Origin: Candidatus Margulisiibacteriota bacterium
Lineage (GTDB): Bacteria; Desulfobacterota; Binatia; HRBIN30
Length of the DNA: 64,000 bases
NCBI GenBank assembly: GCA_035541735.1
Contig: DATKMS010000036.1
Coordinates: 334 to 64,333 of the forward strand
Direction: 5' to 3'
This document shows, piece after piece, positions 24,793-63,309 of this stretch; positions within the stretch are counted from its first letter, which is position 1, and the number at the start of each line of letters is the position of its first letter. The position numbers and the translations under genes were made by a program. The notes under the pieces are model-generated. The model had not been told where the DNA came from, did no database searches, and saw only the letters and a list, made by a program, of their open reading frames with translations.

Positions 24793-24841
24793 GTGACCAG
24801 TGACCGCTAACCAGTAACCAGTAACCAGGGACCAGGGGACC
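24793..24841. repeat. heptad array, CAGTAAC family copy 1 (single arm)
   Basis: gtgacca gtgaccg ctaacca gtaacca gtaacca gggacca ggggacc, seven consecutive 7-nt units in the divergent gap between the PPIase gene and aguB. Confidence 0.8.
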
Positions 24842-24904
24842 GACGAGGCTTCGCGGCTCACGATCTTGCATCGCCCTGCCTTCCAGCGTATCGGTCGGTC
24901 GCAG

Positions 24905-25789
24905 ATGGGCGCGCGCGACAGCGTTACGATCGGTTTGGTCCAGATGCGCTGCAGCGTTGATCCGGGTGCGAATCTCGCTGCTGCGGTCGAGCGCATCGGA
25001 GAGGCGGCGGGGCAGGGGGCAGAGATTGTCTGTCTGCAGGAACTGTTTCGCTCGCAGTATTTCTGCCAGCGCGAGGATGCGGCGCTCTTCGATCTGGCTG
25101 AGCCGATTCCGGGTCCGAGCACGGATGCGCTCGGCCGTGCCGCCGCAGCGCACGGTGTCGCCGTCGTCGGCTCGATCTTCGAACGCCGCGCTGCCGGCCT
25201 GTACCACAATACCGCGGTGCTGATCGACACCGACGGCGCGTTGCGTGGCGTGTATCGCAAGATGCACATCCCCGACGATCCGCTGTACTACGAGAAGTTC
25301 TACTTCACGCCGGGTGATCTGGGGTTTCGCAGCCACAGGTTGCGCGACGTAGAGGTGGGCGCCCTGGTGTGCTGGGACCAATGGTTTCCAGAGGCGGCAC
25401 GGCTCACCGCGCTCGCCGGGGCGCAGATCGTCTGTTATCCGACGGCGATCGGCTGGCACCCGAGCGAGAAGGCGGAGTGCGGCGCGGCGCAGCACGAGGC
25501 GTGGGAGATCATGCAGCGCAGCCACGCCGTTGCCAACGGTGTGTTCGTTGCGGTGACCAACCGTGTCGGTGTCGAAGGCAACCTGGAATTCTGGGGCGGC
25601 TCGTTCGTCGCCGACCCCTTCGGGCGCCTCCTGGCACGCGCCAGTCACGACCGTGAGGAGATCCTCGTCGCGAAGTGCGACCTGCGCCTGATCGACGAGA
25701 CCCGCCGCAACTGGCCCTTCCTGCGCGATCGGCGGATCGATGCGTATGATGGGTTGTTGCGGCGCTTCCTGGACGAGCAAGAACGGTGA
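24905..25789 (+). CDS. aguB: N-carbamoylputrescine amidase (carbon-nitrogen hydrolase)
   Basis: Start taken at ATG 24905. Nitrilase-superfamily pattern: VCLQELF, YRKMHIPDDPLYYEKFYFTPGD and the catalytic Cys motif CWDQWFPE. It is adjacent to aguA. Confidence 0.8.
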   Translation: MGARDSVTIGLVQMRCSVDPGANLAAAVERIGEAAGQGAEIVCLQELFRSQYFCQREDAALFDLAEPIPGPSTDALGRAAAAHGVAVVGSIFERRAAGLYHNTAVLIDTDGALRGVYRKMHIPDDPLYYEKFYFTPGDLGFRSHRLRDVEVGALVCWDQWFPEAARLTALAGAQIVCYPTAIGWHPSEKAECGAAQHEAWEIMQRSHAVANGVFVAVTNRVGVEGNLEFWGGSFVADPFGRLLARASHDREEILVAKCDLRLIDETRRNWPFLRDRRIDAYDGLLRRFLDEQER

Positions 25790-25876
25790 GTCGGGGAGGC
25801 AAAAGTCAAAACGCAAAAGGCAAAAGTGGTGCCCGACTCTTGCCTTTTGGCCTTTGCGTCCGTTGCCTTTCTTGAG
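25788..25876. repeat. heptad-arm palindromic element, CAAAAG family copy 1
   Basis: ggcaaaa gtcaaaa cgcaaaa ggcaaaa gtgg ... cttgcct tttggcc tttgcgt. gagtcggg (25788-25795) and cccgactc (25832-25839) bracket the left arm. It fills the aguB-aguA gap. Confidence 0.8.
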
Positions 25877-25886
25877 CGGTCGTTGC

Positions 25887-26954
25887 ATGCCCAGCACGAA
25901 ATCCTCTCCAACCCCTGCCGCCCTCGGCTTTCGCATGCCGGCGGAGTGGGAGCCGCACGCGGCAACTTGGTTGGCGTGGCCACACAAGGAGGAGTCGTGG
26001 CCGGGAAATTTCGGTCCCATCCCGGCCGTGTGGGTCGAGATGGTGCGGGCGCTGGCGCCGCATGAGCGCGTCAACATCCTTGTCAACGATGCCACAGCGG
26101 CCGCCAGTGTGCGCGACTTGCTGCAGGTGGCGCAGGTGCCCCGTGACGCGGTGTCACTGCACCTGATTCCGACCAACGACGCGTGGGCGCGCGATCACGG
26201 CCCCACCTTTGTTACCCGGCAGGTCGACGGATGCAGCGAGTTGGCGGCGATCGACTGGATCTACAACGCCTGGGGCGGAAAGTATCCGCCGTGGGACCTT
26301 GACGACGTCGTCCCGCAAAAAATCGCCCCCCTGCTTGGTATCCGCCTCTTCGAACCGGGCATCGTGCTGGAGGGCGGCTCGATTGACGTGAACGGGAGCG
26401 GCACGCTGCTGACCACCGAAGCCTGTCTGCTCAATCCGAACCGCAACCCGCACCTCAGTCGCGCGCAGATCGAGCGCTACCTCAGGGACTACCTCGGTGT
26501 CCGCCACATTCTTTGGCTCGGTGAAGGCATCGCCGGCGACGATACCGACGGACATATCGACGACCTCGCGCGTTTCGTTGATCCCGCCACCGTGGTGACC
26601 GTGCTCGAGAGCAACCCGCGTGACCAGAATTACGAACCCCTGCACGCGAACTACGAGCGGCTGCGCCAAATGACCGATCAGGATGGCCGGGCGCTGCGTG
26701 TGCTGACCTTGCCGATGCCCGAACCGGTCTACTATGACGGCCAGCGCCTGCCGGCGAGCTACGCGAACTTCTACATTGCCAACAGCGTAGTGCTGGTGCC
26801 GGTGTTCGGCGACCCGCACGATGGTGAAGCGCTGCGCCGGCTGCAGCAAGTCTTCCCGCGCCGCCGCATCGTCGGCATTCAAGCCCGCGAGCTGGTATGG
26901 GGCCTGGGCGCGTTCCATTGCGTGACGCAGCAGCAACCGGCAGTGGAGCCGTGA
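25887..26954 (+). CDS. aguA: agmatine deiminase
   Basis: Start taken at ATG 25887 (MPSTKSS...). FRMPAEWEPHAATWLAWPH, DAWARDHGPTF, DGHIDDLARF and C-terminal GLGAFHCVTQQQP (catalytic Cys) are present. Confidence 0.85.
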   Translation: MPSTKSSPTPAALGFRMPAEWEPHAATWLAWPHKEESWPGNFGPIPAVWVEMVRALAPHERVNILVNDATAAASVRDLLQVAQVPRDAVSLHLIPTNDAWARDHGPTFVTRQVDGCSELAAIDWIYNAWGGKYPPWDLDDVVPQKIAPLLGIRLFEPGIVLEGGSIDVNGSGTLLTTEACLLNPNRNPHLSRAQIERYLRDYLGVRHILWLGEGIAGDDTDGHIDDLARFVDPATVVTVLESNPRDQNYEPLHANYERLRQMTDQDGRALRVLTLPMPEPVYYDGQRLPASYANFYIANSVVLVPVFGDPHDGEALRRLQQVFPRRRIVGIQARELVWGLGAFHCVTQQQPAVEP

Positions 26955-27007
26955 GTACGAGAGAGAGTGGAGCGTTTCGGATTCTCTCGCTCGCTCACCC
27001 CGTACTC
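26953..27007. repeat. imperfect palindromic element with GAGAG/CTCTC-type periodic arms
   Basis: gagtacg (26953-26959) pairs with cgtactc (27001-27007). The interior is agagagagtggagcg...ttctctcgctcgctcacc. 7-nt periodic CTC-rich units continue to ~27045. Confidence 0.5.
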
Positions 27008-27102
27008 TCCGACGCGCTCAACCTGCCACGCTCTGCCACACTCCGTTGACTCACCCGACCCCTTCTCCTACGCTGCGCTCGCCCGCGCCGCGCGGGGCAG
27101 CT

Positions 27103-27876
27103 ATGAACCGAACCTGCGCTCGTACCTGCGCCGGTTTCGTCGCCGGCCTGCTGACTTGGTCCGTGGCTGGCTGTTCGCACGACAGCGGCACGGGCGGGCG
27201 CGCCGAGTACTTCCCCTTGCACGACGAAGACACGTGGATCTACGGCGTCGAGCAACCGCTGCGTAACCTGCACACGCGCATGACCGTGCGCGTGCGCGGC
27301 GAGCGTTATATCACCCCGCTCGGGCAACACTGCCGGCTGGTCGACGAAACCTACGGCGGCCCCGACGCCGCGATGGCCCAGGCGCAGGGGGAAACGCAGG
27401 ACCGGCAAGTGCATCCGATTGCCTATTGCCGCAAGGATGGATTCCTCTACCGTGCTCTGTCGCTCGAATACCACGGCAAGGACGTGCGGGAAATTGGCCT
27501 CGGTTCCAGCGAGGAGCGCTTTCTGCCAGAAGGTCTGGAGAGCGAGTTTGTGTGGGACAGCCTGACCACCGCCTACGACCTGGGCGGTGGCACGGGGTAT
27601 GACGTCTACCAACACCATCACGCCGTGCCGGAGGTGCGCGTCATCGAGGTTCCGGCCGGGCGCTTCACCGGTTGCGTACGAGTCGAGACAGTGGCGGTGC
27701 ATAGCGGCCGCCACCAAGGAAAGAGTGAGTCAAACCCCATCGTGCTCTACTACACGGATTGGTATGCACCGAACGTCGGTCTGGTGCGCACGACGCAATC
27801 CGACCGCCCAGGCGACGCTCCGCCGCTATCACAAATTGAGTTGCTGGCTTATGATGTCGAAGGCGCTAGGAAATAG
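27103..27876 (+). CDS. hypothetical lipoprotein
   Basis: Start taken at ATG 27103. Signal plus lipobox MNRTCARTCAGFVAGLLTWSVAGC. No family recognised. Confidence 0.6.
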   Translation: MNRTCARTCAGFVAGLLTWSVAGCSHDSGTGGRAEYFPLHDEDTWIYGVEQPLRNLHTRMTVRVRGERYITPLGQHCRLVDETYGGPDAAMAQAQGETQDRQVHPIAYCRKDGFLYRALSLEYHGKDVREIGLGSSEERFLPEGLESEFVWDSLTTAYDLGGGTGYDVYQHHHAVPEVRVIEVPAGRFTGCVRVETVAVHSGRHQGKSESNPIVLYYTDWYAPNVGLVRTTQSDRPGDAPPLSQIELLAYDVEGARK

Positions 27877-28007
27877 TCGACCGTCGGCCGTCGAGAGGAT
27901 CTTCCCTTCGTCTTGTTCGGTTCTCGGCGCTCGACTCACAACTCTCGACGATCGGCTCTCATGAACTTTGACTTTTGCTCGTCAACTTGCCCTACTCGCG
28001 GACGCAC

Positions 28008-28979
28008 ATGATTGAGATCGACCACCTCAGCAAGCGCTTCGGCGCGACGCACGCGGTCAGGGACGTGTCTTTCCACGTCAAGCGCGGCGAGGTCATCGGG
28101 CTGCTGGGGCCGAACGGCTCCGGCAAGACGACGATCATGCGCGTGCTCACCGGTTTCTTCCCGCCGACCAGCGGCTCGGCGCGTGTCGCCGGCTATGATG
28201 CAGCGGAGCAATCGCTCGCGCTGCGTCGCAAGATCGGCTACCTGCCGGAAAGTGTGGTGCTCTACCCCGACATGCGAGTCCGGCGCTTCCTGCAGTTCTG
28301 CGCCGACGTCCGGGGCATGAGCGGCGCCCGCAAACGCGCCCGCATCGACAGCGTCATGCACGACTGCGGCTTGCAGGAAGTCGCCGGGCGCCTGATCGGT
28401 ACGCTGTCGAAGGGATACCGGCAGCGCGTCGGCCTGGCGCAGGCACTGCTGCACGAACCCGAAGTGCTCATCCTCGACGAGCCGACTGTCGGGCTCGATC
28501 CGCGGCAGATCATTGAGATCCGCGGCCTGGTACGCTCCCTGCGCGGGCGAACGACGGTGCTGCTCAGCACACACATCCTGCCCGAAGCGAGCATGACGTG
28601 CGAACGCGTAGTCATCATCGACCGCGGCAGCATTATCGCCGAAGACACCGCTGCAGCTCTGACGCGCCGGCTCGAAGGCAGCGACCGCAGCTTGGTGCGC
28701 GTCGAAGGCCCGGTCGATGCCGTGCGTGCGGCCCTCGCGGCCATAGCCGGCGTCGAGCGTGTCGAACCCGCCGAGGCCGCCGCCGGGGGCAGCGAGGGCG
28801 GCGTGTGTGCCTTCATCGCCCACTCCAACGCGGGCGAACCGGTGCGCAAGGCGATCGCCGCGGCCGTGGTCGGTCACGGCTGGGGCTTGGTCGAAGTGCG
28901 GCCATTGGCGCTGAGCCTCGAAGACCTGTTCGTGCGCCTGGTGACGGAAGAACAGGGTGCAGTGACCGGCGAGCAGTGA
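28008..28979 (+). CDS. ABC transporter ATP-binding protein (ABC-2/GldA-like)
   Basis: Start taken at ATG 28008. Walker A GPNGSGKTT, signature LSKGYRQRV, Walker B LILDEPTVGLD. Confidence 0.9.
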   Translation: MIEIDHLSKRFGATHAVRDVSFHVKRGEVIGLLGPNGSGKTTIMRVLTGFFPPTSGSARVAGYDAAEQSLALRRKIGYLPESVVLYPDMRVRRFLQFCADVRGMSGARKRARIDSVMHDCGLQEVAGRLIGTLSKGYRQRVGLAQALLHEPEVLILDEPTVGLDPRQIIEIRGLVRSLRGRTTVLLSTHILPEASMTCERVVIIDRGSIIAEDTAAALTRRLEGSDRSLVRVEGPVDAVRAALAAIAGVERVEPAEAAAGGSEGGVCAFIAHSNAGEPVRKAIAAAVVGHGWGLVEVRPLALSLEDLFVRLVTEEQGAVTGEQ

Positions 28980-29039
28980 TCCAGTGAGCAGTGATCAGTA
29001 ACCAGTAACCAGGGACCAGAAACTAGGGACCAGAGACCA
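28959..29039. repeat. heptad array, CAGTAAC family copy 2
   Basis: cagtgac cggcgag cagtgat ccagtgag cagtgat cagtaac cagtaac cagggac cagaaac tagggac cagagac. It starts inside the last codons of the ATPase gene and ends 8 nt before the permease GTG start. A 24-nt exact match (28996-29019) to 24812-24835 is present. Confidence 0.8.
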
Positions 29040-29046
29040 ACCTGCC

Positions 29047-29790
29047 GTGACCTTCCTGGCGCTGTTCCGCAAGGAGCTCCTGTCGTACGTCGTGTCGCCG
29101 TTGTTTTACGTGGTGGCGGCGGTGTTCTTGTGCCTGTCGGGGTACTACTTCTACACCGACCTGATCTTCTTCGTCACCTTCGGCTTCGGGATGAACATCC
29201 TGGAGAATTTCTGGCAGCTGTTGCTCGTCGACCTGCGGTTGGTGATGCTGCTCTCGATTCCACTCCTGAGCATGCGCCTGTTCGCCGAGGAAAAAAAGCT
29301 CGGCACCATTGAGCTGCTACTGACCTACCCGGTGCGCGACAGCGAGGTGTTCCTCGCCAAGTTTGCGGCGTGCGCCGTGGTCTTTGGCGTGATGCTGGCG
29401 GGTACGTTGCTCTATCCGATCTACGTGAACATCCTGCAGCCGTTCCCGTGGCTGCCGTTGTTGGCCGGCTACCTGGGTCTGTTCCTCCTCGGGCTCAGCT
29501 TCATCGCCTGCGGCGTCTTCGTGTCGTCGCTGACGGAAAGCCAGGTGGTCGCCGGCATGGCGACCATCGGCATCTTGCTGCTCTTCTGGATCATCACCTG
29601 GAACGAGGCGGCCACCAGCCCGCAGCTGCTGCGGGCGCTGATTCGCCTGTCGATGTTCGACCACTTTCAGACCTTCGCGCGCGGCGTCATCGATGCGCAA
29701 GACGTTGCCTACTTCCTGTCGTTCATCGGCTTCTTCGGTTTCTTGACGCTGCGCGTGCTCGAGTCGCGCAAATGGCGAGGGCGTCGATGA
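29047..29790 (+). CDS. ABC-2 type transporter permease (GldF-like)
   Basis: GTG start. 247 aa with ~6 hydrophobic segments. Positioned between the ABC ATPase and the GldG-like protein. Confidence 0.75.
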   Translation: MTFLALFRKELLSYVVSPLFYVVAAVFLCLSGYYFYTDLIFFVTFGFGMNILENFWQLLLVDLRLVMLLSIPLLSMRLFAEEKKLGTIELLLTYPVRDSEVFLAKFAACAVVFGVMLAGTLLYPIYVNILQPFPWLPLLAGYLGLFLLGLSFIACGVFVSSLTESQVVAGMATIGILLLFWIITWNEAATSPQLLRALIRLSMFDHFQTFARGVIDAQDVAYFLSFIGFFGFLTLRVLESRKWRGRR

Positions 29791-31190: not shown

Positions 31191-31254
31191 GAAAAAGACA
31201 GTCCAAAGTAACCACTCTGGCTTGGTGGCGCTGGATTGAACGGCCGCAAGCTGT

Positions 31255-31331
31255 CCTCTCCCGCGCGTCATCTCAGCGCGGGAGAGGGAAGGGTGAGGGT
31301 GCGTCTCCCGCGCGGAACAGATGCGCGGGAG
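31255..31331. repeat. twin TCTCCCGCGC hairpins
   Basis: cctctcccgcgc (31255-31266) pairs with gcgcgggagagg (31275-31286), 12 bp. tctcccgcgc (31304-31313) pairs with gcgcgggaga (31322-31331), 10 bp. This is two tandem copies of the same stem. Confidence 0.8.
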
Positions 31332-31400
31332 AGGGCAGCTCCCAAGGCTTTCATGAGCGCCGCGCTAGTGAGACTGAGGGCTTACTGCCAAAGACGGCAA

Positions 31401-31463
31401 GCTCAAAGCTGAAAGCCAGAGCGGCGTTCGAAGATCTCTGGCTTTCGGCTTTCAACTTTGAGC
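31401..31463. repeat. heptad-arm palindromic element (GAAAG/CTTTC units)
   Basis: gctcaaa gctgaaa gccagag ... tctggct ttcggct ttcaact ttgagc. The right arm carries one extra heptad. Confidence 0.75.
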
Positions 31464-31488
31464 TTTTCGCTGCGCCCATTGAGGCGCC

Positions 31489-32151: not shown

Positions 32152-34533
32152 ATGGCGCGACGGCTAGCAGGGATTACTCTCCGACTGTTTCCGATCTTGC
32201 TCTACGTGGCGTCAACAGCGGGCTGTGGGGGCGACGCCGCCTCGAACGTGTCGGTTCCCAAGGCTCAACCCTCTCCCGGACCTGCCGTCAACGGTACCGT
32301 GTCTTTGCCCAACGGCACTTTGGCAATGCGGGAGCGATCCGTGTTGCGGCGCTTCGCCGCGCTGGTGGTCGAGGAGGCCGAGGCGTTGGTCGCGACCAAC
32401 GTGAAGCCAGTGCCGCGCAACGTCCCCGTGCTCCTGACGTTGCAATACCCCAACGGTTCCTCCCAAACATATGATACGTTTTACACCAACGACCAGGGTG
32501 GCTACCTCCTCAATCTCCCAGCGGGAACCAGTGAGGACACGTGCCGTTTCATCGTGTCCGTCGGCAGTGGCTCCACGCTGACGCGCGCCTTTGTCTTCAG
32601 CACCGTCAAGCCGGTCAACATCGACTACATCAGCGAGACGGCGGTGACGCTCATCTTGGACCAGGTGCATCAAGGCGCCGACCTGTGCGAGTTCTCGGTC
32701 CGAGAAATCGAACAACTCGTCAACATGATCCGTGATCTGCCAGGCATCGTGACCGGCCCGGACATCTTCCAAACCAATCGCAACGCTCTGGTCGCTGCCT
32801 CGAGCAACCCTGACATCCAAGCCTTCGTGCGCGCCGCCGGCGGAGTGGCCACGCCAGTGCCCACGATTACACCGTTGCCGCCGACGGAGACGCCGACCGA
32901 AGGCACGCCGAGTGTCACGCCTACGGTGACCGTCACGAAAACGCGCGTTCCGACCAACACGCCGGTCAACACCGCAACCTTCACGGCGACGCGCACCAAC
33001 ACGCCGATCCCAACGCAAACCCCGACGCGCAGCCTCACGCCGACAGGGACCAAGCCGCCGCCGACCGCGACCGTGACCAACACCGCGACGCCGACGCGGA
33101 CCAATACCGCGACGCCAATCCCGACGACGACGGCGACGCCCACACGGACGAATACCGTGCCGCCGCCTCCGACGTCGACTCAGTCCCCTACGCCGACGGG
33201 CACCCTTGCACCGACGGCCACGTCAACCGCGACGCTGACGCCGACACAGGGCGGGCCGGTGCCGCACATTACCATCGGCGACGCCAGCGGGCCGGCGGGC
33301 AGTCAAGTGGTGGTGCCGATCTCGTTGGAGAAGAATGGGGTGACGGCGGCCAGCATCGCGCCGCTGATCATCGACATCGACACGGGCGTGTTGACGTTCG
33401 TGAGTTGCGCGAAGACGGCGGCGGTGACCAGCGGGCAGACGGTGGCGACCTCGATGCCGATGCCGGGACAGATCACCATCGTGCTGGCGGGGCTGGATCT
33501 GACGGTGCTGCCGGACGGGGAGATCATCGACTGTACGTTCACCATCAACGCGGCCGCAACGGGCAGTACGGCGGTGACCTTCGAGTCAGCGGCGGTGGGC
33601 GACGATCAGTTCAACAGCTTCGACGCGACCGGCACGAGCGGGACGGTGACCGTGGGGGTCGTGAACCCGCCGACGGCGACGCCAACGCCGACGCAGGGCG
33701 GGGCGGTGCCGGACATTACCATCGGCGATGCGAGTGGGCCGGCGGGTAGTCAGGTGGTGGTGCCGATCTCGCTGGAGAAGAATGGGGTGCGGGCGGCCAG
33801 CATCGCGCCGCTGATCATCGACATCGACACGGGCGTGTTGACGTTCGTGAGTTGCGCGAAGACGGCGGCGGTGACCAGCGGGCAGACGGTGGCGACCTCG
33901 ATGCCGACGCCGGGACAGATCACCATCGTGCTGGCGGGGCTGGATCTGACGGTGCTGCCGGACGGGGAGATCATCGACTGTACGTTCACCATCAACGCGG
34001 CCGCGACGGGCAGCACGGCGGTGACCTTCGAGTCGGCGGCCGTGGGTGACGACCAGTTCAACAGCTTCGATGCGAGCGGGACGAGCGGGACGGTGACCGT
34101 GGGCACCGCGAATCCGACGGTGCCGGACGTCACCATCGGCGACGCCAGCGGGCCGGCGGGCAGTCAGGTGGTGGTGCCGATCTCGCTGGAGAAGAATGGG
34201 GTGCGGGCGGCCAGCATCGCGCCGCTGGTGCTCGACATCGACACGGGCGTGTTGACGTTCGTGAGCTGCGCCAAGACGGCGGCGGTGACCAGCGGGCAGA
34301 CGGTGGCGACGTCGATGCCGATGCCGGGACAGATCACCATCGTGCTGGCGGGACTCGATCTGACGGTGCTGCCGGATGGAAACATCATCGACTGCACGTT
34401 CACCATCAACGCGGCCGCGACGGGCAGCACGGCGGTGACCTTCGAGTCGGCAGCGGTGGGTGACGATCAGTTCAACAGCTTCGACGCGAGCGGCACGAGC
34501 GGCACGGTGACGGTGGGGACGGGCGGTGCTTGA
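32152..34533 (+). CDS. lipoprotein scaffoldin-like protein: N-terminal domain, Thr/Pro linker, three tandem cohesin-like modules
   Basis: GAGAGGAG precedes ATG 32152. Lipobox LLYVASTAGC. A ~200-aa N-terminal region includes a prealbumin-like stretch (VPVLLTLQYPNGSSQTYDTFYTNDQGGYLLNLPAG), followed by a ~130-aa TP-rich linker. Three ~140-aa modules have cohesin-like pattern ITIGDASGPAGSQVVVPISLEKNG...IIDIDTGVLTFVSC...GQITIVLAG...PDGEIIDCTFTINAAATGSTAVTFES...GTSGTVTVG. Confidence 0.7.
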   Translation: MARRLAGITLRLFPILLYVASTAGCGGDAASNVSVPKAQPSPGPAVNGTVSLPNGTLAMRERSVLRRFAALVVEEAEALVATNVKPVPRNVPVLLTLQYPNGSSQTYDTFYTNDQGGYLLNLPAGTSEDTCRFIVSVGSGSTLTRAFVFSTVKPVNIDYISETAVTLILDQVHQGADLCEFSVREIEQLVNMIRDLPGIVTGPDIFQTNRNALVAASSNPDIQAFVRAAGGVATPVPTITPLPPTETPTEGTPSVTPTVTVTKTRVPTNTPVNTATFTATRTNTPIPTQTPTRSLTPTGTKPPPTATVTNTATPTRTNTATPIPTTTATPTRTNTVPPPPTSTQSPTPTGTLAPTATSTATLTPTQGGPVPHITIGDASGPAGSQVVVPISLEKNGVTAASIAPLIIDIDTGVLTFVSCAKTAAVTSGQTVATSMPMPGQITIVLAGLDLTVLPDGEIIDCTFTINAAATGSTAVTFESAAVGDDQFNSFDATGTSGTVTVGVVNPPTATPTPTQGGAVPDITIGDASGPAGSQVVVPISLEKNGVRAASIAPLIIDIDTGVLTFVSCAKTAAVTSGQTVATSMPTPGQITIVLAGLDLTVLPDGEIIDCTFTINAAATGSTAVTFESAAVGDDQFNSFDASGTSGTVTVGTANPTVPDVTIGDASGPAGSQVVVPISLEKNGVRAASIAPLVLDIDTGVLTFVSCAKTAAVTSGQTVATSMPMPGQITIVLAGLDLTVLPDGNIIDCTFTINAAATGSTAVTFESAAVGDDQFNSFDASGTSGTVTVGTGGA
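33244..34530 (+). repeat. three near-identical intragenic tandem repeats (cohesin-like modules)
   Basis: The ATCGGCGA landmark recurs at 33274, 33721 and 34135 (periods 447 and 414 nt). The copies differ by only a handful of substitutions and by the length of the inter-module linker. Confidence 0.9.
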
Positions 34534-37215: not shown

Positions 37216-37248
37216 GTCCACAGGGGGGCACGGCGCCCCCCTGTGGAC
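37216..37248 (+). terminator. strong hairpin after the dockerin gene (no U-tract)
   Basis: gtccacaggggggc (37216-37229) pairs with gcccccctgtggac (37235-37248), 14 bp perfect with a 5-nt loop. It is followed by cacaaaaac rather than a T-run. A TTGACA box follows at 37264-37269. Confidence 0.45.
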
Positions 37249-38916: not shown

Positions 38917-38938
38917 GAACCTAGTCAACGCCTGAGGA

Positions 38939-38976
38939 AGGGGACGGAGGCACACTCTCCGTCCCCTTTCTTTTTG
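38939..38976 (+). terminator. rho-independent terminator
   Basis: aggggacggag (38939-38949) pairs with ctccgtcccct (38957-38967), followed by ttctttttg. Confidence 0.8.
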
Positions 38977-42748: not shown

Positions 42749-42779
42749 CGAGGGCCTCGGGTGGATCCCGAGGCCCTCG
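42749..42779. terminator. bidirectional hairpin between convergent genes
   Basis: cgagggcctcggg (42749-42761) pairs with cccgaggccctcg (42767-42779), a 13-bp stem preceded by aaaaag. Confidence 0.6.
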
Positions 42780-51709: not shown

Positions 51710-51824
51710 GCGTTAGAGCGTGGGAGCGTGGAAGAGTGTGGGAGCGTGAAAACGTGGAGCGTCAGAGAGTGAGGGCGTGGGAAAATGAGAGCTGCGATCG
51801 CTCCCAGACTCTCACGCTCTACGC
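51710..51824. repeat. stem-enclosed C-depleted G/A/T tract of ~8-nt units
   Basis: gcgttagagcgtg (51710-51722) pairs with cacgctctacgc (51813-51824). The enclosed tract is ggagcgtg gaagagtg tgggagcgtg aaaacgtg gagcgtc agagagtg agggcgtg ggaaaatg. I counted only ~7 C in ~75 nt, and almost all sit in GCGT. Confidence 0.75.
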
Positions 51825-51838
51825 ATTAGGGTGTCAGC

Positions 51839-53018: not shown

Positions 53019-53837
53019 ATGTCGGACTACGAGACGTTACTGTACGAGGAGAAGGACGGGGTGGCGTGGGTTACGCTCAACCGTCCCGCCGTGCACAACG
53101 CCTTCAACGTGCAGATGCAGCGCGAGCTGCACGAGCTGTGGCGCGGCTTGCGGCGCCACGACGCCGTCCGCGTCGTGGTGCTGACCGGGGCTGGGGACAA
53201 GGCGTTTTGCACGGGCATCGACCGCACCGAAACGATGGGCGAGTACCCCAAGCCGGGTGAGCGCGTCGTCGGCGCGGCGTCGACGCCGTTCATGTTCGAC
53301 GACCCGGGGGCCAACATCGGGCCGAAGAGCTGCGATCTGTGGAAGCCGGTGATCGCTGCCGTCAACGGCATGGCCTGCGGCGGTGCCTTCTACATGCTCG
53401 GGGAGGTGGAGTTCATCATTGCGGCCGAGCACGCCACCTTCTTCGACCCGCACGTGACCTATGGCATGACCGCGGCGTTCGAGCCGATGCACATGCTGCA
53501 GAAGATGCCCTTCCACGAGATCATGCGTCTCTCCTTGCTCGGCAACCACGAGCGCCTGTCGGCTACGCGGGCGCACGAGGTCGGTCTGGTATCGGAAGTG
53601 GTGCCGGCGGGCCAGCTGCGGGAAGCAGCCCAGTGGGCGGCAGAGGCGATCGCTTCGGCGCCCCCGCTCGCCATCCAGGGGACCGTCCGCGCGATTTGGG
53701 CGGCGCGTGAGCTGTCCCGCTCGCAAGCCCTGGGGCTGGGCTATGCCTTCGTTGGCATGGGAACGAACCAGGAGTCGATCCGTCAAGGTCAGGCGGCCTT
53801 CGCTTCCGGCAAGCGCATCAAGTGGAAGCTGCGTTGA
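53019..53837 (+). CDS. enoyl-CoA hydratase/isomerase family protein
   Basis: GAGGAA precedes ATG 53019. VAWVTLNRPAVHNAF, VLTGAGDKAFCTGID and AAVNGMACGGAF are present. Confidence 0.85.
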   Translation: MSDYETLLYEEKDGVAWVTLNRPAVHNAFNVQMQRELHELWRGLRRHDAVRVVVLTGAGDKAFCTGIDRTETMGEYPKPGERVVGAASTPFMFDDPGANIGPKSCDLWKPVIAAVNGMACGGAFYMLGEVEFIIAAEHATFFDPHVTYGMTAAFEPMHMLQKMPFHEIMRLSLLGNHERLSATRAHEVGLVSEVVPAGQLREAAQWAAEAIASAPPLAIQGTVRAIWAARELSRSQALGLGYAFVGMGTNQESIRQGQAAFASGKRIKWKLR

Positions 53838-53901
53838 GAGCGTGCTCGTGTCCGTGTTCGTCCAGGTGGTTCCTTTCGAGCACGAACACGAGCACGCTCT
53901 C
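53836..53901. repeat. long hairpin with hexamer-periodic arms
   Basis: gagagcgtgctcgtgtccgtgttcg (53836-53860) against the reverse complement of 53877-53901 (gagagcgtgctcgtgttcgtgctcg) gives 25 bp with 2 transition mismatches. The arm reads gtgctc gtgtcc gtgttc. Confidence 0.8.
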
Positions 53902-59340: not shown

Positions 59341-59351
59341 AGGAGAACCCG

Positions 59352-60344: not shown

Positions 60345-60598
60345 CCGTGCAACGCCACGGCGCCGTCCAATGCAGCAGAAAACGTACGACAGATACACCC
60401 ATCCCGGCAGCACGCCCACAACAGGCGAGAGCTGTGCAGGTGGGTAACCGCACGTAGCGCGCAATCGGAACAGGTGCGTCCGCCGCCTCTTGTTCCCATT
60501 GTGCGCTGCGCCCCCCTAATTCTTGCCAACGCGAGAGCCCGTCGAGCTTATCAACGCGGCTCATTCACGCGGCAGCGCTCGTGTGTTAAAGTTGCTGA

Positions 60599-61756
60599 AT
60601 GCTTTTGAGCCGGCCGCGCCGTAAACGACTGCCACGAGCGCTGCAACGCGCCAACGCCGCCCCACCGTTGGAGAACGTCTTGGCGAGCCTGGGCGACCCG
60701 GTGATCCTCACCGATGACGCGGATCACATCACGTTGTTCAACCAGGCCGCGGAGGAGCTGACGGGTGTACCCCGGGCGCACGTGCTGTACCGGTCCTTCG
60801 AAGAGGTGTTCAAGTCGAGTCCGCCGATCGTCGCCATCGTGCAACGAACGCGTACCTCCGGACAGAGCCAGTCGTGCGGCGAGGAGACGCTGATGATTGC
60901 GCAGCGCCGCATCCCCGTCCGCCTGAGCTGTTCGCCGCTCTGGGCCCCCAACGACGAGGTGCAGGGGACAGCGCTGGTGATGCAAGATCTCAGCTACCAG
61001 AAGAAGCTCGAAGACGAAGCGCGGCGCAGCGAGACCCTCGCCCGCCTCGGCGGCCTGGTGGCCGGGTTGGCACACGAGATCAAGAACCCGCTCGGCGGCA
61101 TCAAGGGCGCTGCGCAGTTGCTCGCGCAACGCTTTGCCGAACAGCCGGACGTGCACGAGTATACCGGCGTGATGATCCGCGAGATCGACCGCCTCGCCCG
61201 CCTCGTCGAGCAGCTGCTCACCCTGGGCGCTCCGCCCGCTCCGACGCAGCAAGCGCTCAACGTGCACAAAATCATTCACGAGGTGTTGGCGCTGATGCAG
61301 AGCGAGCTGAGCGCCAAAGGCATCGTCGTGCGTCTGCAGATCGATCCCAGCCTGCCCGACGTGCGCGGTGATGAGGCGCAGCTGACGCATGTGTTTCTCA
61401 ATTTGGTGAAGAATGCGATGGAGGCTATGCCCGAGCACGGAGCCCTGACGATTACCACCCGGATGGAAACCGATTTTCACATTCTTTGGCGGGCCGTGCG
61501 CGGTGGGACCGCCGGTGGAGCCGCGGGTTCGGGGAAGTTCTTGCGCGTCGAGGTGGCCGACACCGGACCGGGCTTCCCGGAGAGCGATTTGGAGCGCGTG
61601 TTCGAGCCGTTCTTCAGCACCAAGCCGCGTGGCACGGGCCTGGGATTGGCGATTTGCCAGCGCATCGTCGCCGCGCACGGCGGCGACATCCGCGCTGAGA
61701 ATCGCCGCGGCGGCGGAGCGGCGGTCACGGTGACGCTGCCATTGGTGGGGGCATGA
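60599..61756 (+). CDS. PAS-domain sensor histidine kinase (NtrB-like, cytoplasmic)
   Basis: PAS-like region (ITLFNQAAEELTGVPRAHVL), H-box LAHEIKNPLGGI, N-box LNLVKNAMEA, and G-boxes DTGPGF / GTGLGLAI. Confidence 0.85.
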   Translation: MLLSRPRRKRLPRALQRANAAPPLENVLASLGDPVILTDDADHITLFNQAAEELTGVPRAHVLYRSFEEVFKSSPPIVAIVQRTRTSGQSQSCGEETLMIAQRRIPVRLSCSPLWAPNDEVQGTALVMQDLSYQKKLEDEARRSETLARLGGLVAGLAHEIKNPLGGIKGAAQLLAQRFAEQPDVHEYTGVMIREIDRLARLVEQLLTLGAPPAPTQQALNVHKIIHEVLALMQSELSAKGIVVRLQIDPSLPDVRGDEAQLTHVFLNLVKNAMEAMPEHGALTITTRMETDFHILWRAVRGGTAGGAAGSGKFLRVEVADTGPGFPESDLERVFEPFFSTKPRGTGLGLAICQRIVAAHGGDIRAENRRGGGAAVTVTLPLVGA

Positions 61757-63204
61757 GTTACACAGGCAAGATCTTGGTGGCGGACGACGAGGAGTCTATC
61801 CGTTGGGTGCTGGCAACAGCCCTGAGCGGCGAGGGCCATACCGTGGAGCAGGTGGAAAGCGGCGGGGCGGCCCTGCAGCGCCTCGGCACTGAGCACTTCG
61901 ACCTCGCCTTCATTGACATCAAGATGCCCGATCTCGACGGGCTCTCGCTGCTGTCGCAGGCGCGCCAGGCCACTGTGAGCACGCCGATCGTCATCATCAC
62001 CGCGCAGAACACCATGGCCAACGCCATCGAGGCGATGAAGCGCGGCGCCTACGACTATCTGACCAAGCCGTTCGACATCGAGGAGGTGCGGCTGCTCGTG
62101 CAGCGTGTGCTCGAGATGCGCCGGCAAGCGGCTGACCTGACGCGCCTCGAAGAGCAGACGCGCCGCCGCTTCGAGTTGGGCGTCGAGCTGATCGGCAAAA
62201 CGCCCGCCATGCAGGAGATCTTCAAGACCATCGGGCGCGTGGCCCACACCGACGCCACCGTCCTGATTCAGGGCGAGAGCGGCACCGGCAAGGAGCTGAT
62301 CGCGCGGGCCATCCATTCGCATTCGCCGCGCTGGAGCGGGCCGTTTGTCGCGCGCAACTGCTCGGCGGTGCCGCGCGACCTGCTCGAGAGCGAACTGTTC
62401 GGACACGAGCGCGGCGCCTTCACCGGGGCCACCGAGCAGCGCGCCGGCGTCTTCGAGATCGCGCAGGGTGGTACGCTCTTCCTCGACGAGATCGGTGACA
62501 TGCCGCTCGAGCTGCAAGCCAAGCTGCTGCGCGTCGTGCAGGAGCGGGAGCTCACCCGCATCGGCGGGCGCGAGGTCATCAAGGTCGATTGCCGCATCAT
62601 CGCGGCGACAAACCAAGACCTGGAGCGCGCGGTGCAACAGGGGCGGTTCCGTGAAGACCTCTACTTCCGGCTCAAGGTCGTGCCCATCGTCGTGCCGCCG
62701 CTGCGGCAACGGCGCGGCGACATTCCGGAGCTGGTGGCCTACTTCATCGAGAAGGTCAATCGCGAGATGGGCACGAACATCAGTGGCGTGTCGCCCGAGG
62801 CGCAGGCAGTGCTGAATGCGCACGACTGGCCGGGGAACGTGCGCGAGCTGGAGAACACGCTGGTGCGGGCTGCGGTTCTGGCCCCTGGACCCACGCTGAT
62901 GCCGCGCGATCTGGCGCTGGCGACGCGTGAGACGACGGTGGCGGCGTACGACGACATGTCGCTCGAAGAAGTCGTGCGCCTCAAGCTGAAGGAGTACTTC
63001 CGACAAACGCGCGACGTCGAGCCGACCGACTTGTATTCGCTCATCATGGAGCGCGTCGAGCGGCCGCTCATCGAGCTCACGCTGGAGCGCACCCGCGGCA
63101 ACCAGCTGAAGGCGGCAGCCATCCTCGGGATCAACCGCAACACGCTGCACAAGAAGATCACCGAGCTGAAGATCACGCCGAAGCGGCGGCCGGAAGGCGT
63201 GTAA
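61753..63204 (+). CDS. sigma54-dependent response regulator (NtrC family)
   Basis: ATGA overlap with the kinase gene. Receiver domain (ILVADDEESIRWVL, FIDIKMPDLDG), AAA+ domain (GESGTGKE, GAFTGA) and C-terminal Fis-type HTH (AAAILGINRNTLHKKI). Confidence 0.9.
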   Translation: MSYTGKILVADDEESIRWVLATALSGEGHTVEQVESGGAALQRLGTEHFDLAFIDIKMPDLDGLSLLSQARQATVSTPIVIITAQNTMANAIEAMKRGAYDYLTKPFDIEEVRLLVQRVLEMRRQAADLTRLEEQTRRRFELGVELIGKTPAMQEIFKTIGRVAHTDATVLIQGESGTGKELIARAIHSHSPRWSGPFVARNCSAVPRDLLESELFGHERGAFTGATEQRAGVFEIAQGGTLFLDEIGDMPLELQAKLLRVVQERELTRIGGREVIKVDCRIIAATNQDLERAVQQGRFREDLYFRLKVVPIVVPPLRQRRGDIPELVAYFIEKVNREMGTNISGVSPEAQAVLNAHDWPGNVRELENTLVRAAVLAPGPTLMPRDLALATRETTVAAYDDMSLEEVVRLKLKEYFRQTRDVEPTDLYSLIMERVERPLIELTLERTRGNQLKAAAILGINRNTLHKKITELKITPKRRPEGV

Positions 63205-63209
63205 GGACA

Positions 63210-63309
63210 AATGGTGAATGGCGAACAGTGAACGGCGAGTGGTGCACGTCAGGACCAGCCCTCGACTGCCGCCATTCACCATTCACCATTCCCCATTCGC
63301 CATTCGGCA
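63210..63309. repeat. heptad-arm palindromic element (GAATGG/CCATTC units)
   Basis: aatggtg aatggcg aacagtg aacggcg agtggtg ... gccattc accattc accattc cccattc gccattc ggca, ending exactly at the thiE ATG. Confidence 0.85.

What the first reader, a model, noticed from the sequence alone, without database searches (positions are those of the whole stretch)
24793..63309. Intergenic gaps are populated by palindromic elements whose arms are tandem ~7-nt repeats, with a different motif at almost every locus
At least twelve intergenic gaps in the right 40 kb contain the same architecture. A run of 4-12 degenerate heptads is followed by a short spacer, and then a run of the complementary heptads.

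Units seen:
- CAGTAAC (24793, 28959, 43677)
- NNCAAAA (25788, 46685)
- GAGAG/CTCTC (26953)
- GAAAG (31401)
- NNNAAAC (44318)
- NNNCGGA (47722)
- GAATGGN (63210)
- a hexamer version GTGYTC (53836)
- an ~8-mer C-depleted version (51710)

Because the arms are periodic, they can pair in several registers. Arm lengths are often unequal by exactly one unit (31401-31463, 46750-46797). Most copies sit between co-directional genes, often touching the stop or start codon. Two lie in divergent promoter gaps, so they are not simply terminators. They are not CRISPR arrays, since there are no spacers and the period is 7. They are also not classical fixed-sequence REP/BIME or MITE copies, because the motif changes from site to site. 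The pattern suggests local generation by slippage on both arms of a hairpin, or a dedicated unknown mechanism. I do not know a described element class with these properties.
Basis: seen in the sequence. Interest (0 to 1): 0.75.

Follow-up and report, generated by a model that had tools for sequence, protein, structure and literature searches.

The report
Heptamer-repeat hairpins filling intergenic gaps
Many gaps between genes in this soil bacterium hold short 7-base tandem repeats, usually followed by their mirror-image complement so that they fold into a hairpin; this is a real and fast-evolving feature, but the same kind of repeat is already known from cyanobacteria and Xanthomonas, and its function is unknown there too.

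Summary
The core observation holds. Period-7 self-similarity occurs 9 times in 7.0 kb of intergenic DNA. Dinucleotide shuffles give 0.01, and 57 kb of coding DNA has none.

- **Structure:** eight elements fold far better than shuffles (z -2.9 to -7.5).
two listed loci are one-armed arrays (24793, 28959) and one is not periodic (26953). One element was missed (27877).
- **Motifs are not locus-specific.** They form dispersed families. 24793 and 28959 share an exact 24-mer, and 25797 and 46688 an exact 23-mer. Three further families recur at non-orthologous sites in related genomes.
- **Hypervariable:** a conspecific contig carries a 21-nt (3-unit) insertion in one arm.
- **Fast turnover:** orthologous gaps in species at 78-93% protein identity are empty or hold a different element.
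- **Precedent:** the same architecture occurs in a Gemmatimonadales MAG and other phyla. It has been described for cyanobacterial STRR hairpins and for inverted GGGAATC arrays in Xanthomonas.

Best reading: these are microsatellite-like heptamer-repeat hairpin families. They expand by slippage, are copied between sites by an unknown route, and are tolerated in transcribed gaps.

Verdict: new member of a known kind, moderate interest.

The parts
24792..24842 (.). One-armed heptad array, CAGTRAC/CAGGGAC family, about 7 units. It lies in the divergent gap between the SurA-like gene (-) and the CN-hydrolase gene (+).
   Evidence: Lag-7 identity 0.77, p<0.0005. No inverted partner. Folds worse than shuffles, z +1.47. 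Shares an exact 24-mer with 28959.
25795..25878 (.). Two-armed heptad hairpin, NNCAAAA (GCAAAAG) family, between the CN-hydrolase and agmatine deiminase genes. The 3' arm is decayed.
   Evidence: 5' arm lag-7 identity 0.73. 20 Watson-Crick pairs. Weak stability, z -1.27. Exact 23-mer shared with 46688.
26951..26998 (.). Short GAGAG/CTCTC inverted repeat.
   Evidence: No lag-7 signal (best lag 4, not significant). z +0.31.
27877..27960 (.).
   Evidence: Lag 7 is significant in both arms (p 0.005 and <0.0005). TRF gives period 7 at 27876-27894. A stem is predicted but is not more stable than shuffles, z +0.37. The same motif occurs in the L090 and L091 arrays.
28959..29040 (.). One-armed heptad array of about 12 units, CAGTRAC family, between the ABC ATPase and permease genes. 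It overlaps the ATPase stop codon (28977-28979).
   Evidence: Lag-7 identity 0.64, p<0.0005. No partner. z +1.82. Exact 24-mer with 24793, and 29 nt at 93% with 43677.
31399..31468 (.). Two-armed heptad hairpin, AAGCTNN family, upstream of the DUF4340 gene. It pairs in two registers.
   Evidence: Lag 7 significant in both arms. z -3.48. Registers 7 nt apart, 0.87 and 0.79 identity. Related to L089 3640-3718 at a non-orthologous site.
43666..43792 (.). Two-armed heptad hairpin, CAGTRAC / GTYACTG family, with two small inner hairpins. It lies in a divergent gap (orfM on -, MauE-like on +).
   Evidence: z -5.81. The 3' arm is 21 nt (3 units) longer in conspecific contig L086. orfM on the minus strand is supported by tblastn.
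44317..44414 (.). Two-armed heptad hairpin, GGAAACN family, between the MauE-like and CoA-transferase genes.
   Evidence: z -2.85. The orthologous gap is only 30-50 nt and empty in L089, L090, L093 and L149. Family copies with shared termini occur in L174 at two other loci.
46688..46797 (.). Two-armed heptad hairpin, GCAAAAG family, between the DUF2889 and flavin reductase genes. The 3' arm has extra unpaired U-rich units that run to 3 nt before the ATG.
   Evidence: z -5.43, with a stem of about 26 continuous pairs predicted; 22 Watson-Crick and 2 G-T pairs in the 24-nt arm alignment. Best register 0.92 identity. A 46776 A>C polymorphism is seen in 3 of 6 contigs. The orthologous gap in L089 holds a different heptad hairpin, and in L090 it is empty.
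47715..47785 (.). Hairpin with weak period 7 (CGGATTT) in the convergent gap between the PKD and Fer2 genes. The two stop codons (47718-20 TGA and 47780-82 TCA) pair with each other at the base of the stem.
   Evidence: Lag 7 p=0.017 and 0.063. z -4.61 and predicted structure. Sequence.
51712..51826 (.). C-depleted 8-mer array (GAGCGTGG, about 8 units) with a shorter complementary 3' arm, upstream of the P450 gene.
   Evidence: Lag-8 identity 0.61, p<0.0005. TRF period 8. z -3.82.
53836..53901 (.). Hexamer-unit (GTGYTC / GARCAC) hairpin. Its 5' arm contains the stop codon of the enoyl-CoA hydratase gene.
   Evidence: Lag-6 identity 0.67 in both arms. 23 of 25 positions are Watson-Crick pairs. 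z -7.54.
63208..63306 (.). Two-armed heptad hairpin, GAATGGN / NCCATTC family, between the sigma-54 response regulator and thiE genes. It starts about 3 nt after the stop codon and ends 4 nt before the ATG.
   Evidence: Lag-7 identity 0.59 and 0.82. z -5.46. Three equally good registers. Three uncompensated SNPs in the 3' arm of conspecific contig L002.

Best explanation
These are heptanucleotide simple-sequence-repeat elements of the kind known as STRR in cyanobacteria and as long SSRs in general. In this genome most of them are paired inverted arrays, so each strand can fold into a long imperfect hairpin. They are not one-off local inventions. They belong to several small dispersed families, each with its own heptamer: CAGTRAC, GCAAAAG, GGAAACN, AAGCTNN, TCGACNN, GAATGGN and others.

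Proposed working, step by step:
1. The arrays behave like microsatellites. Units are gained and lost by slipped-strand mispairing, independently in each arm (shown by a 3-unit indel between conspecific contigs).
2. A 7-nt unit causes a frameshift inside genes, so only intergenic copies survive (shown by the distribution).
3. Copies or half-copies reach new gaps by an unidentified copying route. The second arm may be made or repaired by replication template switching (inferred).
4. The elements lie between stop and start codons of co-directional genes, so they are transcribed with the operon. Self-folding loops the insert out and keeps the upstream stop close to the downstream start, which makes them tolerable (inferred).
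5. Their G/purine-rich-arm-first polarity is shared with the ordinary terminator-type hairpins of this genome and is absent from inverted repeats in coding DNA. This indicates a transcript-level filter (polarity shown, cause inferred).
6. Any effect on mRNA processing, stability, partial termination or translational coupling is probably a side effect that selection may use at individual loci.
For: - **Period-7 excess confined to intergenic DNA:**
- **Hairpin stability:**
- **Multi-register pairing:**
- **Family structure within the window:** exact 24-mer shared by 24793 and 28959; exact 23-mer shared by 25797 and 46688; 29 nt at 93% between 28959 and 43677.
- **Family structure across genomes:** 44318 resembles two L174 loci, including the non-repeat termini. 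31401 resembles L089 3640-3718. The two L015 copies have homologous loops in opposite orientation.
- **Hypervariability:** +21 nt in L086, three SNPs in a 38-nt array in L002 against a background of about 0.3%, and a unit-converting SNP at 46776.
- **Rapid turnover in orthologous gaps** at 78-93% protein identity.
- **Patchiness:** none in 11 gaps of the left 24 kb, and none in 70 kb from four relatives.
- **Polarity:** the purine-rich arm is 5' in 22 of 25 heptad hairpins across phyla. Among intergenic inverted repeats in the window, G>C in the 5' arm in 13 against 2; in coding DNA it is 10 against 10.
- **The same architecture elsewhere:** Gemmatimonadales, Heliobacteriaceae-labelled, Cytophagales and Verrucomicrobiota loci. 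Period 7 is the dominant short period in 1.27 Mb from 80 species.
- **Literature precedent:** PMC4692102 (inverted GGGAATC pairs), PMC2670836 (STRR hairpins), PMC4679880 (review of Mrazek 2007), PMC8794818 (template switching creates hairpins).
Against: - No copying mechanism was identified. There is no transposase or RAYT in the window (Pfam), and no target-site duplications could be defined.
- Loops of family members in the window clade are unrelated, which is odd for a unit that moves as a whole.
- In L089 the array next to the flavin reductase gene contains the start codon itself (CCATATG units). The outermost pairs of the 46688 palindrome look like native SD-region sequence. Both hint at local generation in at least some cases.
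- Wobble-pair asymmetry gives no sign of RNA-level selection (G-U 10 against A-C 11).
- No expression data are available.
- The sample is 64 kb plus about 150 kb of relatives, so family copy numbers are unknown.
Confidence: 0.5

Rival explanations
1. Selected cis-acting RNA hairpins. The elements would be maintained because they act on the operon transcript as leaky terminators or attenuators, as 3'-end protectors like REP in E. coli operons, as RNase III processing sites, or as devices that couple translation of neighbouring cistrons. Unit number would tune the effect.
For: - Stable hairpins sit exactly between stop and start codons.
- The G/purine-first polarity is the same as in the genome's ordinary terminator hairpins and is absent from inverted repeats in coding DNA.
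- Several 3' arms are U-rich and extend beyond the stem (46750-46797, 31441-31470).
- In the convergent gap the two stop codons pair in the stem base, like a bidirectional terminator.
- Experimental precedent exists: the H. influenzae hmw (ATCTTTC)n 5'-UTR hairpin is cut by RNase III and sets expression (PMC12721329).
- Cyanobacterial STRR hairpins have been proposed to stabilise transcripts or couple translation (PMC2670836).
Against: - Orthologous gaps in close relatives lack the element or carry an unrelated one, so there is no conservation of function by position.
- SNPs in the arms are uncompensated, and the arms change length independently.
- There is no G-U over A-C bias.
- Only 2 of 13 fit a terminator pattern.
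- One-armed family members cannot act as hairpins.
- A strong terminator 3-27 nt before a promoter-less start codon (46801, 63310) would silence the downstream gene.
Confidence: 0.2
2. Purely local de novo generation. Each element would arise where it sits, by slippage of a local seed on both arms of a pre-existing hairpin or by template-switch inverted duplication. No sequence would be transferred between loci.
For: - Unit-number polymorphism shows that slippage is active.
- The L089 array units (CAGCCAT / CCATATG) resemble the native sequence around the flavin reductase start codon and include it.
- The outermost pairs of 46688 (GAAGAAGG / CCTTGCTTCTCTTC) look like an inverted copy of a native SD-like sequence.
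- Loops are unrelated between family members.
- Template switching is a documented way to create perfect hairpins (PMC8794818).
Against: - Exact 23- and 24-nt blocks with the same order of variant units occur at loci 4-21 kb apart.
- Non-repeat termini are shared between the window and two L174 loci in another species.
- The two L015 copies have homologous loops.
- The same heptamer families recur at non-orthologous gaps in different genomes.
Confidence: 0.1
3. Binding arrays for a factor that reads a 5-nt core every 7 nt, either on RNA (S1, cold-shock, RRM or HutP-like proteins) or on DNA. The hairpin form would regulate access to the sites.
For: - Within arrays, 5 positions are conserved and 1-2 vary (CAAAA, CCATT, GAAAC and CAGTR cores).
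- One-armed CAGTRAC arrays immediately upstream of two start codons are less structured than shuffles (z +1.5 and +1.8), and those genes lack an SD sequence.
- The CAGTRAC / TCACTGA motif is one or two bases from the TAACTGA repeats proposed to be post-transcriptional regulator sites in Beggiatoaceae (PMC4679880), and it resembles Geobacter MTYCTGA (PMC2700814).
- The window encodes an RRM-domain protein and a DEAD-box helicase.
Against: - At least ten different cores would need ten readers, or one very tolerant reader.
- No core is shared by all families.
- Positions are not conserved between relatives.
- Nothing links the RRM protein to the repeats.
Confidence: 0.08
4. Conventional non-autonomous mobile elements (MITE- or REP/REPIN-like) moved by a transposase encoded elsewhere in the genome. 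The heptad periodicity would be a secondary feature of their terminal inverted repeats.
For: - Dispersed families with inverted arms.
- Copies in both orientations with a conserved core in L015.
- Presence/absence polymorphism in orthologous gaps.
- Local clustering of same-family copies.
- Relatives carry other long, unique palindromic inserts in the same gaps (L091 and L092).
Against: - No transposase or RAYT domain was found in any window ORF scanned.
- There is no conserved GTAG-type REP head and no recognisable target-site duplication.
- Loops are not conserved in the window clade.
- One-armed copies exist.
Confidence: 0.1
5. Chance or an assembly artefact.
For: None beyond the general difficulty of assembling repeats from short reads.
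Against: - Shuffles give 0.01 against 9 observed.
- The same elements are recovered in independent ENA, JGI and Logan assemblies from different samples.
Confidence: 0.01

Closest known systems
Cyanobacterial STRR (short tandemly repeated repetitive) heptamer sequences and their intergenic hairpins (e.g. hupS-hupL, upstream of hoxW)
   Same: - 7-bp units in tandem and several motif families per genome.
- Intergenic or intercistronic location.
- Ability to fold into a hairpin.
- Function unknown; transcript stability, termination or translational coupling have been suggested (PMC2670836).
   Different: - Different phylum: an uncultured soil bacterium at 65% G+C.
- Different heptamers, although the CAGT core of the commonest family here recalls STRR units (that comparison is from my own memory of Mazel 1990).
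- Here most arrays are paired, and the families are seen to be gained and lost between close relatives.
Xanthomonas GGGAATC heptameric repeats, including 70-75 'convergent' inverted pairs per genome (Rehm et al. 2015, PMC4692102)
   Same: - High-G+C genome and heptamer arrays enriched in non-coding DNA between co-directional ORFs.
- Unit number varies.
- Pairs on opposite strands with the G-rich array first, the same polarity as found here.
- G-rich on the sense strand after stop codons and C-rich before start codons.
   Different: - Xanthomonas is dominated by one G-quadruplex-capable motif. Here there are about ten motifs, most of which cannot form G4.
- In Xanthomonas 83% of sites are conserved between two species. 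Here turnover is much faster.
Long simple sequence repeats with 5-11-nt units (Mrazek et al. 2007, as summarised in PMC4679880)
   Same: - Heptanucleotide units are the most abundant class.
- Sporadic phylogenetic distribution.
- Polymerase slippage proposed as the cause.
- Units that are not multiples of three are excluded from genes.
- My own count over 80 species agrees.
   Different: As far as I could read, that survey did not describe inverted pairing or dispersed families with a shared order of units.
TAACTGA direct repeats of Beggiatoaceae, cyanobacteria and Bacteroidetes (MacGregor 2015, PMC4679880)
   Same: - Heptamer arrays immediately upstream of start codons that lack an SD sequence, sometimes overlapping the upstream stop codon.
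- The array supplies stop codons in all frames, as CAGTGAC does at 28977.
- TCACTGA / TTACTGA here differ by one base from TAACTGA.
   Different: - There it is essentially one motif in direct orientation, with a single inverted example among 170 sets.
- Here there are many motifs, mostly inverted pairs.
Haemophilus influenzae hmw1A (ATCTTTC)n 5'-UTR repeat hairpin processed by RNase III (PMC12721329)
   Same: A heptamer SSR is transcribed in a UTR, forms one arm of a long hairpin, and varies in unit number. It is the only case with a demonstrated mechanism.
   Different: - It is a single contingency locus in a host-adapted pathogen.
- Its right arm is a G-rich non-repeat region.
- Its pyrimidine-rich arm comes first, the opposite polarity.
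- RNase III dependence was not testable here.
REP / BIME / REPIN elements and MITEs
   Same: - Short palindromic intergenic repeats in families.
- Tolerated within operons and able to form mRNA hairpins.
- Presence/absence polymorphism.
   Different: - No conserved REP head (GTAG), no RAYT or IS partner seen, and no target-site duplication.
- The arms are internally periodic and change length by whole units.
- Loops are not conserved.

Membership tests
Heptanucleotide SSR / STRR-type repeats | Head-to-tail tandem copies (3 or more) of a 7-nt unit | tested here: met
   TRF period-7 rows. Lag-7 segments. Per-arm permutation tests. Exceptions: 51716 has period 8, 53836 has period 6, and 26953 has none.
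Heptanucleotide SSR / STRR-type repeats | Strong excess over chance and confinement to non-coding DNA | tested here: met
   9 segments in 7.0 kb of intergenic DNA against 0.01 in shuffles, and 0 in 57 kb of coding DNA.
Heptanucleotide SSR / STRR-type repeats | Unit-number variation between closely related genomes | tested here: met
   A 21-nt (3-unit) insertion in the 3' arm at 43759 in L086, which is otherwise 99.3% identical. This is the only length variant seen in about 12 conspecific contigs.
Heptanucleotide SSR / STRR-type repeats | The same heptamer family present at many loci in one genome | tested here: inconclusive
   Within 64 kb there are 3 loci for CAGTRAC and 2 for GCAAAAG. Other families are seen once here and again in relatives. 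The whole genome is not available.
Inverted heptamer-array pairs (Xanthomonas type) | Two arrays of the same heptamer on opposite strands, close together, in convergent (G-rich first) orientation | tested here: met
   Arm alignments and composition. In the window, G minus C of the 5' arm is positive in 8 and zero in 2 of the 10 loci aligned (one of them the non-periodic 26953), and never negative. R>Y holds in 22 of 25 across all loci. Definition taken from PMC4692102.
REP / REPIN | Conserved 20-40-nt imperfect palindrome with a conserved 5' tetranucleotide (GTAG-like), shared by all copies | tested here: not met
   No sequence is shared across the families, and the arms start with different bases.
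REP / REPIN | A cognate RAYT (Y1 transposase) gene in the genome | not testable with these tools
   None among the window ORFs scanned with Pfam. The rest of the genome is not available.
MITE | Terminal inverted repeats plus a target-site duplication, with ends related to a resident IS | tested here: inconclusive
   Inverted arms are present. Filled and empty orthologous gaps are too diverged to define junctions or duplications. No IS is present in the window.
Intrinsic (Rho-independent) terminator | Short G+C-rich stem, 3-8-nt loop, followed directly by a U tract | tested here: not met
   The pattern scan flags only parts of 25797 (minus strand) and 44318. Loops are 6-52 nt, and half of the 3' arms have no T run. 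Genuine terminator-like hairpins exist elsewhere (38935-38971, 42749-42779).
CRISPR array | 23-50-nt repeats separated by unique spacers of similar length | tested here: not met
   Units are 6-8 nt and contiguous, with no spacers.
Any Rfam family | Covariance-model score at or above the gathering threshold | tested here: not met
   No hits at gathering thresholds. With E<=1 there were only sub-threshold matches, mostly to eukaryotic miRNA-precursor hairpins.
Phase-variable heptamer SSR with an RNase III-processed UTR hairpin (H. influenzae hmw type) | The repeat is transcribed in a UTR and forms a long hairpin cleaved by RNase III, and unit number sets expression | not testable with these tools
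   The architecture is compatible. Transcription, cleavage and expression were not measurable.

The most novel reading that the evidence does not exclude
Heptad-armed hairpins could be a single cross-phylum class of self-propagating intergenic elements. On this reading they would be seen here, in Gemmatimonadales, Verrucomicrobiota, Bacteroidota, Xanthomonas and cyanobacteria. They would have an obligatory purine/G-rich-arm-first polarity and would be created and spread by a dedicated, still unidentified mechanism. Candidates are transcription- and hairpin-dependent repeat dynamics, as hinted by the H. influenzae RNase III work, or a hairpin-specific enzyme. The cell would use them as tunable intercistronic regulators.
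Probability: 0.12. Interest if true: 0.75.

Novelty: new member of a known kind. Interest (0 to 1): 0.38.

Why it matters
Heptamer tandem repeats have been known in bacteria for decades (my recollection of the original STRR report is 1990), and no function or origin has been agreed.

This locus and its relatives add three points:
- Such repeats occur as paired hairpins in an uncultured high-G+C soil lineage and in several other phyla.
- They behave as dispersed families as well as local microsatellites.
- They share a strand-symmetric G/purine-first polarity with ordinary terminator hairpins, which points to a filter acting on the transcript.

In practice, they are a source of rapid variation in intergenic length and structure inside operons, and a trap for short-read assembly and for gene-start prediction. 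Several long ORFs in the mechanical ORF list run into them.

The finding does not reveal a new type of system.

Tried and rejected
- **CRISPR, tRNA/tmRNA and Rfam families:** nothing found.
- **Canonical promoters and terminators:** the pattern scans give counts at or near shuffle expectation, and few hits fall on the elements.
- **Wobble-pair strand test for RNA-level selection:** G-U 10 against A-C 11, uninformative.
- **Strand comparison of folding energies:** mixed in sign.
- **Taxonomic placement:** the best agmatine deiminase hit is a Binatia MAG at 70%. RF3 relatives carry conflicting labels: 'Ca. Kryptonia' at 89%, Acidoferrales and Terriglobales at 79-80%, Binatia at 71-74%. The cluster look-up gave no organism names. 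The lineage is left unresolved, possibly Acidobacteriota.
- **RF3 relatives for orthologous-gap comparison:** synteny is lost beyond prfC and the DEAD-box helicase gene. The loci served only as extra samples, and four of five have no heptads.
- **Exact-protein look-up for agmatine deiminase:** not on record.
- **Binatia loci:** they have no heptads, so the feature is not simply a trait of that label.
- **Target-site duplications:** filled and empty gaps are too diverged to define them.
- **The 31249-31340 double palindrome as a REP-like family:** no further copies in the window.
- **Technical failures:** two scripts timed out (the second gave partial output). One literature query was malformed, and so was one call to the repeat finder.

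Full report
**1. What is in the sequence**

The window has 65% G+C and carries no tRNA genes and no Rfam family. I built a gene map from codon-position G+C, Pfam hits and gene calls on identical metagenome contigs.

Direct reading confirms runs of degenerate 7-nt units. Tandem Repeats Finder reports period 7 or 14 at 24792, 25797, 27876, 28959-29039, 31441, 43677, 43749, 44326, 44380, 46756 and 63272. It reports period 8 at 51716 and period 6 at 53877.

**2. Is it more than chance?**

- A lag-k self-match scan gives 10 segments at lag 7. Every other lag from 3 to 13 gives 0-3, and lag 14 (the harmonic of 7) gives 5.
- Restricted to 37 gaps (7.0 kb), there are 9 lag-7 segments covering 357 nt. 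In 300 dinucleotide-preserving shuffles the mean is 0.01 and the maximum 1. The 57 kb of coding DNA has none.
- Per-arm permutation tests confirm period 7 for most arms, period 8 at 51716 and period 6 at 53836. There is no periodicity at 26953. They also reveal a missed element at 27877-27960.
- Eight elements fold better than essentially all shuffles: 31390 (z -3.5), 43660 (-5.8), 44305 (-2.9), 46686 (-5.4), 47712 (-4.6), 51705 (-3.8), 53830 (-7.5) and 63205 (-5.5).
- 25790 is weak (-1.3). 26955 and 27877 are not significant.
- The two one-armed arrays, 24780 and 28955, fold worse than shuffles (+1.5 and +1.8) (a whole-gap version is).
- Arms pair in several registers spaced by exactly one unit.

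There are about nine two-armed elements, two one-armed arrays and one non-member.

**3. Not a different motif everywhere: families**

An all-against-all comparison shows the following.
- 24793 and 28959 share an exact 24-mer, CAGTAACCAGTAACCAGGGACCAG.
- 28959 and 43677 share 29 nt at 93%.
- 25797 and 46688 share an exact 23-mer, CAAAAGTCAAAACGCAAAAGGCA. This is the same order of variant units.

Families also recur in other genomes.
- The GGAAACN element at 44318 has two relatives in L174, a genome whose RF3 is 88% identical. They sit at unrelated loci and share the non-repeat termini (AGAAATG.AAAAC).
- The AAGCTNN element at 31401 matches L089 3640-3718 in a different gap.
- The TCGACNN motif of 27877 recurs as one-armed arrays just before a start codon in L090 and L091.
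- In a Gemmatimonadales MAG (L015), four heptad hairpins lie within 21 kb. Two of them (GATAGAC) have homologous loops of about 47 nt in opposite orientation.

Identical unit order and shared termini are not expected from independent slippage. Sequence is therefore copied between sites by some route.

**4. Dynamics**

Conspecific contigs are 99.3-100% identical to the window.
- L086 carries +21 nt, exactly three units, in the 3' arm at 43759, and the 5' arm is unchanged.
- L002 has three substitutions inside the 38-nt array at 63268-63305, against a background of about 0.3%. None is compensated in the other arm.
- 46776 A>C, seen in 3 of 6 contigs, converts one unit variant into another.

Across species at 78-93% CoA-transferase identity:
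- **MauE>CoAT gap.** It is 177 nt with the element in the window. In L087 it is about 125 nt with an unrelated palindrome. In L089, L090, L093 and L149 it is 30-50 nt and empty.
- **DUF2889>flavin reductase gap.** It holds GCAAAAG in the window and a different heptad hairpin (ATGGCKN) in L089. In L090 it holds nothing.
- **CoAT>DUF2889 gap.** It is 20 nt in the window. In L087 it holds an 8-mer hairpin, and in L090 and L091 one-armed arrays.

Turnover is thus much faster than protein divergence. The distribution is also patchy. None of the 11 gaps in the left 24 kb has an element, against about 13 of 26 gaps on the right. There is none in 70 kb from four RF3 relatives.

**5. Polarity**

In 22 of 25 heptad hairpins, from the window, its relatives and other phyla, the 5' arm is purine-rich. 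G is at least as frequent as C in 24 of 25.

For a palindrome this property reads the same on both strands. It therefore cannot come from the direction of a gene or of a replication fork.

As a control, inverted repeats inside coding DNA of the window are balanced (G>C in 10, G<C in 10). All intergenic hairpins, including the ordinary G+C-stem/U-tail terminators at 37216, 38935 and 42749, are G-first (13 against 2).

Rehm et al. describe the same 'convergent' rule in Xanthomonas. I take this as evidence that the elements are exposed to a transcript-level filter shared with terminators. The cause is inferred. One possibility is avoidance of an exposed C-rich arm that would load Rho. Another is a requirement for a pyrimidine/U-rich 3' side.

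Wobble-pair counts (G-U 10, A-C 11) give no further strand signal.

**6. Position relative to genes**

- Elements begin 0-24 nt after the upstream stop codon (median about 5 nt). The exception is 31401, which follows another hairpin.
- The stop lies inside the array or stem at 28977, 53835 and 47718.
- Elements end 3-61 nt before the next start codon.
- Most of these starts lack an SD sequence.
- Several gaps are inside obvious operons: aguB-aguA, the ABC ATPase and permease genes, and the GldG-like and DUF4340 genes.
- There is no room for a promoter between the hairpin and the ATG at 46801 or 63310. The elements must therefore be transcribed through, and they cannot be efficient terminators.
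- In the convergent gap the two stop codons pair with each other.

Folding would loop the insert out and keep the stop and start codons adjacent. I propose this as the reason two-armed copies are tolerated (inference).

**7. Distribution and literature**

- Among 80 loci from 80 species chosen only by agmatine deiminase homology, period 7 is the commonest short period. There are 70 segments in 32 loci.
- The aguB>aguA gap itself carries heptad arrays of different motifs in Verrucomicrobiota and Bacteroidota.
- Paired forms occur in several phyla.
- Heptanucleotide long SSRs as the dominant class are known (Mrazek 2007, via PMC4679880).
- STRR 7-bp repeats forming intergenic hairpins are known in cyanobacteria (PMC2670836).
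- So are 70-75 inverted GGGAATC pairs in Xanthomonas (PMC4692102), tandem heptanucleotide elements in Geobacter (PMC2700814) and TAACTGA arrays (PMC4679880).
- One case has a mechanism: the H. influenzae hmw heptamer hairpin, which is cut by RNase III (PMC12721329).
- Template switching as a generator of hairpins is documented (PMC8794818).

**8. Verdict**

The finding is a genuine, statistically overwhelming feature, but it belongs to a known kind, the heptanucleotide SSR/STRR-type repeats that include inverted pairs.

My best explanation (confidence about 0.5) is that these are dispersed families of microsatellite-like heptad hairpins, tolerated in transcribed gaps. Selected RNA function, purely local origin, protein-binding arrays and transposase-driven MITE/REP elements remain as rivals.

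The copying mechanism and any function remain unknown.

Novelty: new member of a known kind. Interest: about 0.38.

Noticed in passing
window 6645-8477 (inverted repeat arms 7463-7495 and 7633-7665): Two divergently oriented MerR-family genes have their HTH domains facing each other. They are separated by a gap that holds a 33-nt inverted repeat (88% complementary, 137 nt apart). The gap folds better than shuffles (z about -3). It looks like an inverted duplication of a regulator together with its operator.
   Followed up: partly
window 33229-34517 (within ORF 32152-34533): The cohesin-domain protein gene contains 447- and 414-nt tandem repeats at 93-94% identity, preceded by 24- and 48-nt repeats at 33068-33179. 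This points to recent internal domain duplication.
   Followed up: no
window 31249-31340: Two tandem copies of a G+C-rich palindrome (TCTCCCGCGCG ... CGCGCGGGAGA) nest into a 37-nt-arm hairpin, in the same gap as the 31401 heptad hairpin. Unusually, this one is pyrimidine-first. No other copies occur in the window.
   Followed up: partly
window 9218-18067: A single 2949-aa ORF with strong codon-position G+C bias. It was not characterised.
   Followed up: no
window 18240-22594: prfC (RF3), a DEAD-box helicase gene and a 104-aa RRM_1-domain RNA-binding protein gene lie close together. The RRM gene is followed by a clean terminator hairpin at 22603-22640. RRM proteins are typical of some heptad-rich phyla (my own recollection), but no link to the repeats was shown.
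   Followed up: no
window 5054-5470: An ORF matching only the C-terminal domain of a cation-transporting P-type ATPase. In relative L172 a full 828-aa ATPase lies next to the DEAD-box helicase gene. The window copy is probably a gene remnant.
   Followed up: no
window 28959-28979: The last six codons and the TGA stop of the ABC ATPase gene are encoded by the first heptad units of the CAGTGAC array. A CAGTGAN array supplies a stop codon in every frame within three units. That may be why it can sit on a gene's 3' end.
   Followed up: partly
L092 2500-2860 and L091 2215-2860, 4035-4770: In close relatives the same gaps hold long (100-230 nt) near-perfect palindromes that are not heptad-based. Intergenic gaps in this clade attract several kinds of hairpin insert.
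   Followed up: no
L026, L029, L041, L058, L064, L072, L075 and L083, just upstream of the agmatine deiminase start: The aguB>aguA intercistronic gap carries heptad arrays of unrelated motifs in Verrucomicrobiota and Bacteroidota (GCGTTSR, AACGAAC, CCCTCAT, TTTTGAA and others). The arrays often run right up to the start codon.
   Followed up: partly
L089 3146-3175: The last unit of the 3' arm (CCATATG) contains the flavin reductase start codon, and the units resemble the native sequence (CTGCCATG) found at that position in the window. This is a possible case of an array seeded from local sequence.
   Followed up: partly
window 38935-38971, 42749-42779, 37216-37248: Ordinary G+C-rich stem hairpins sit at gene ends. 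The hairpin at 38935 is followed by a T tract. The one at 42749 has a T tract on the minus strand and lies between convergent genes. The organism therefore also uses conventional terminators.
   Followed up: partly
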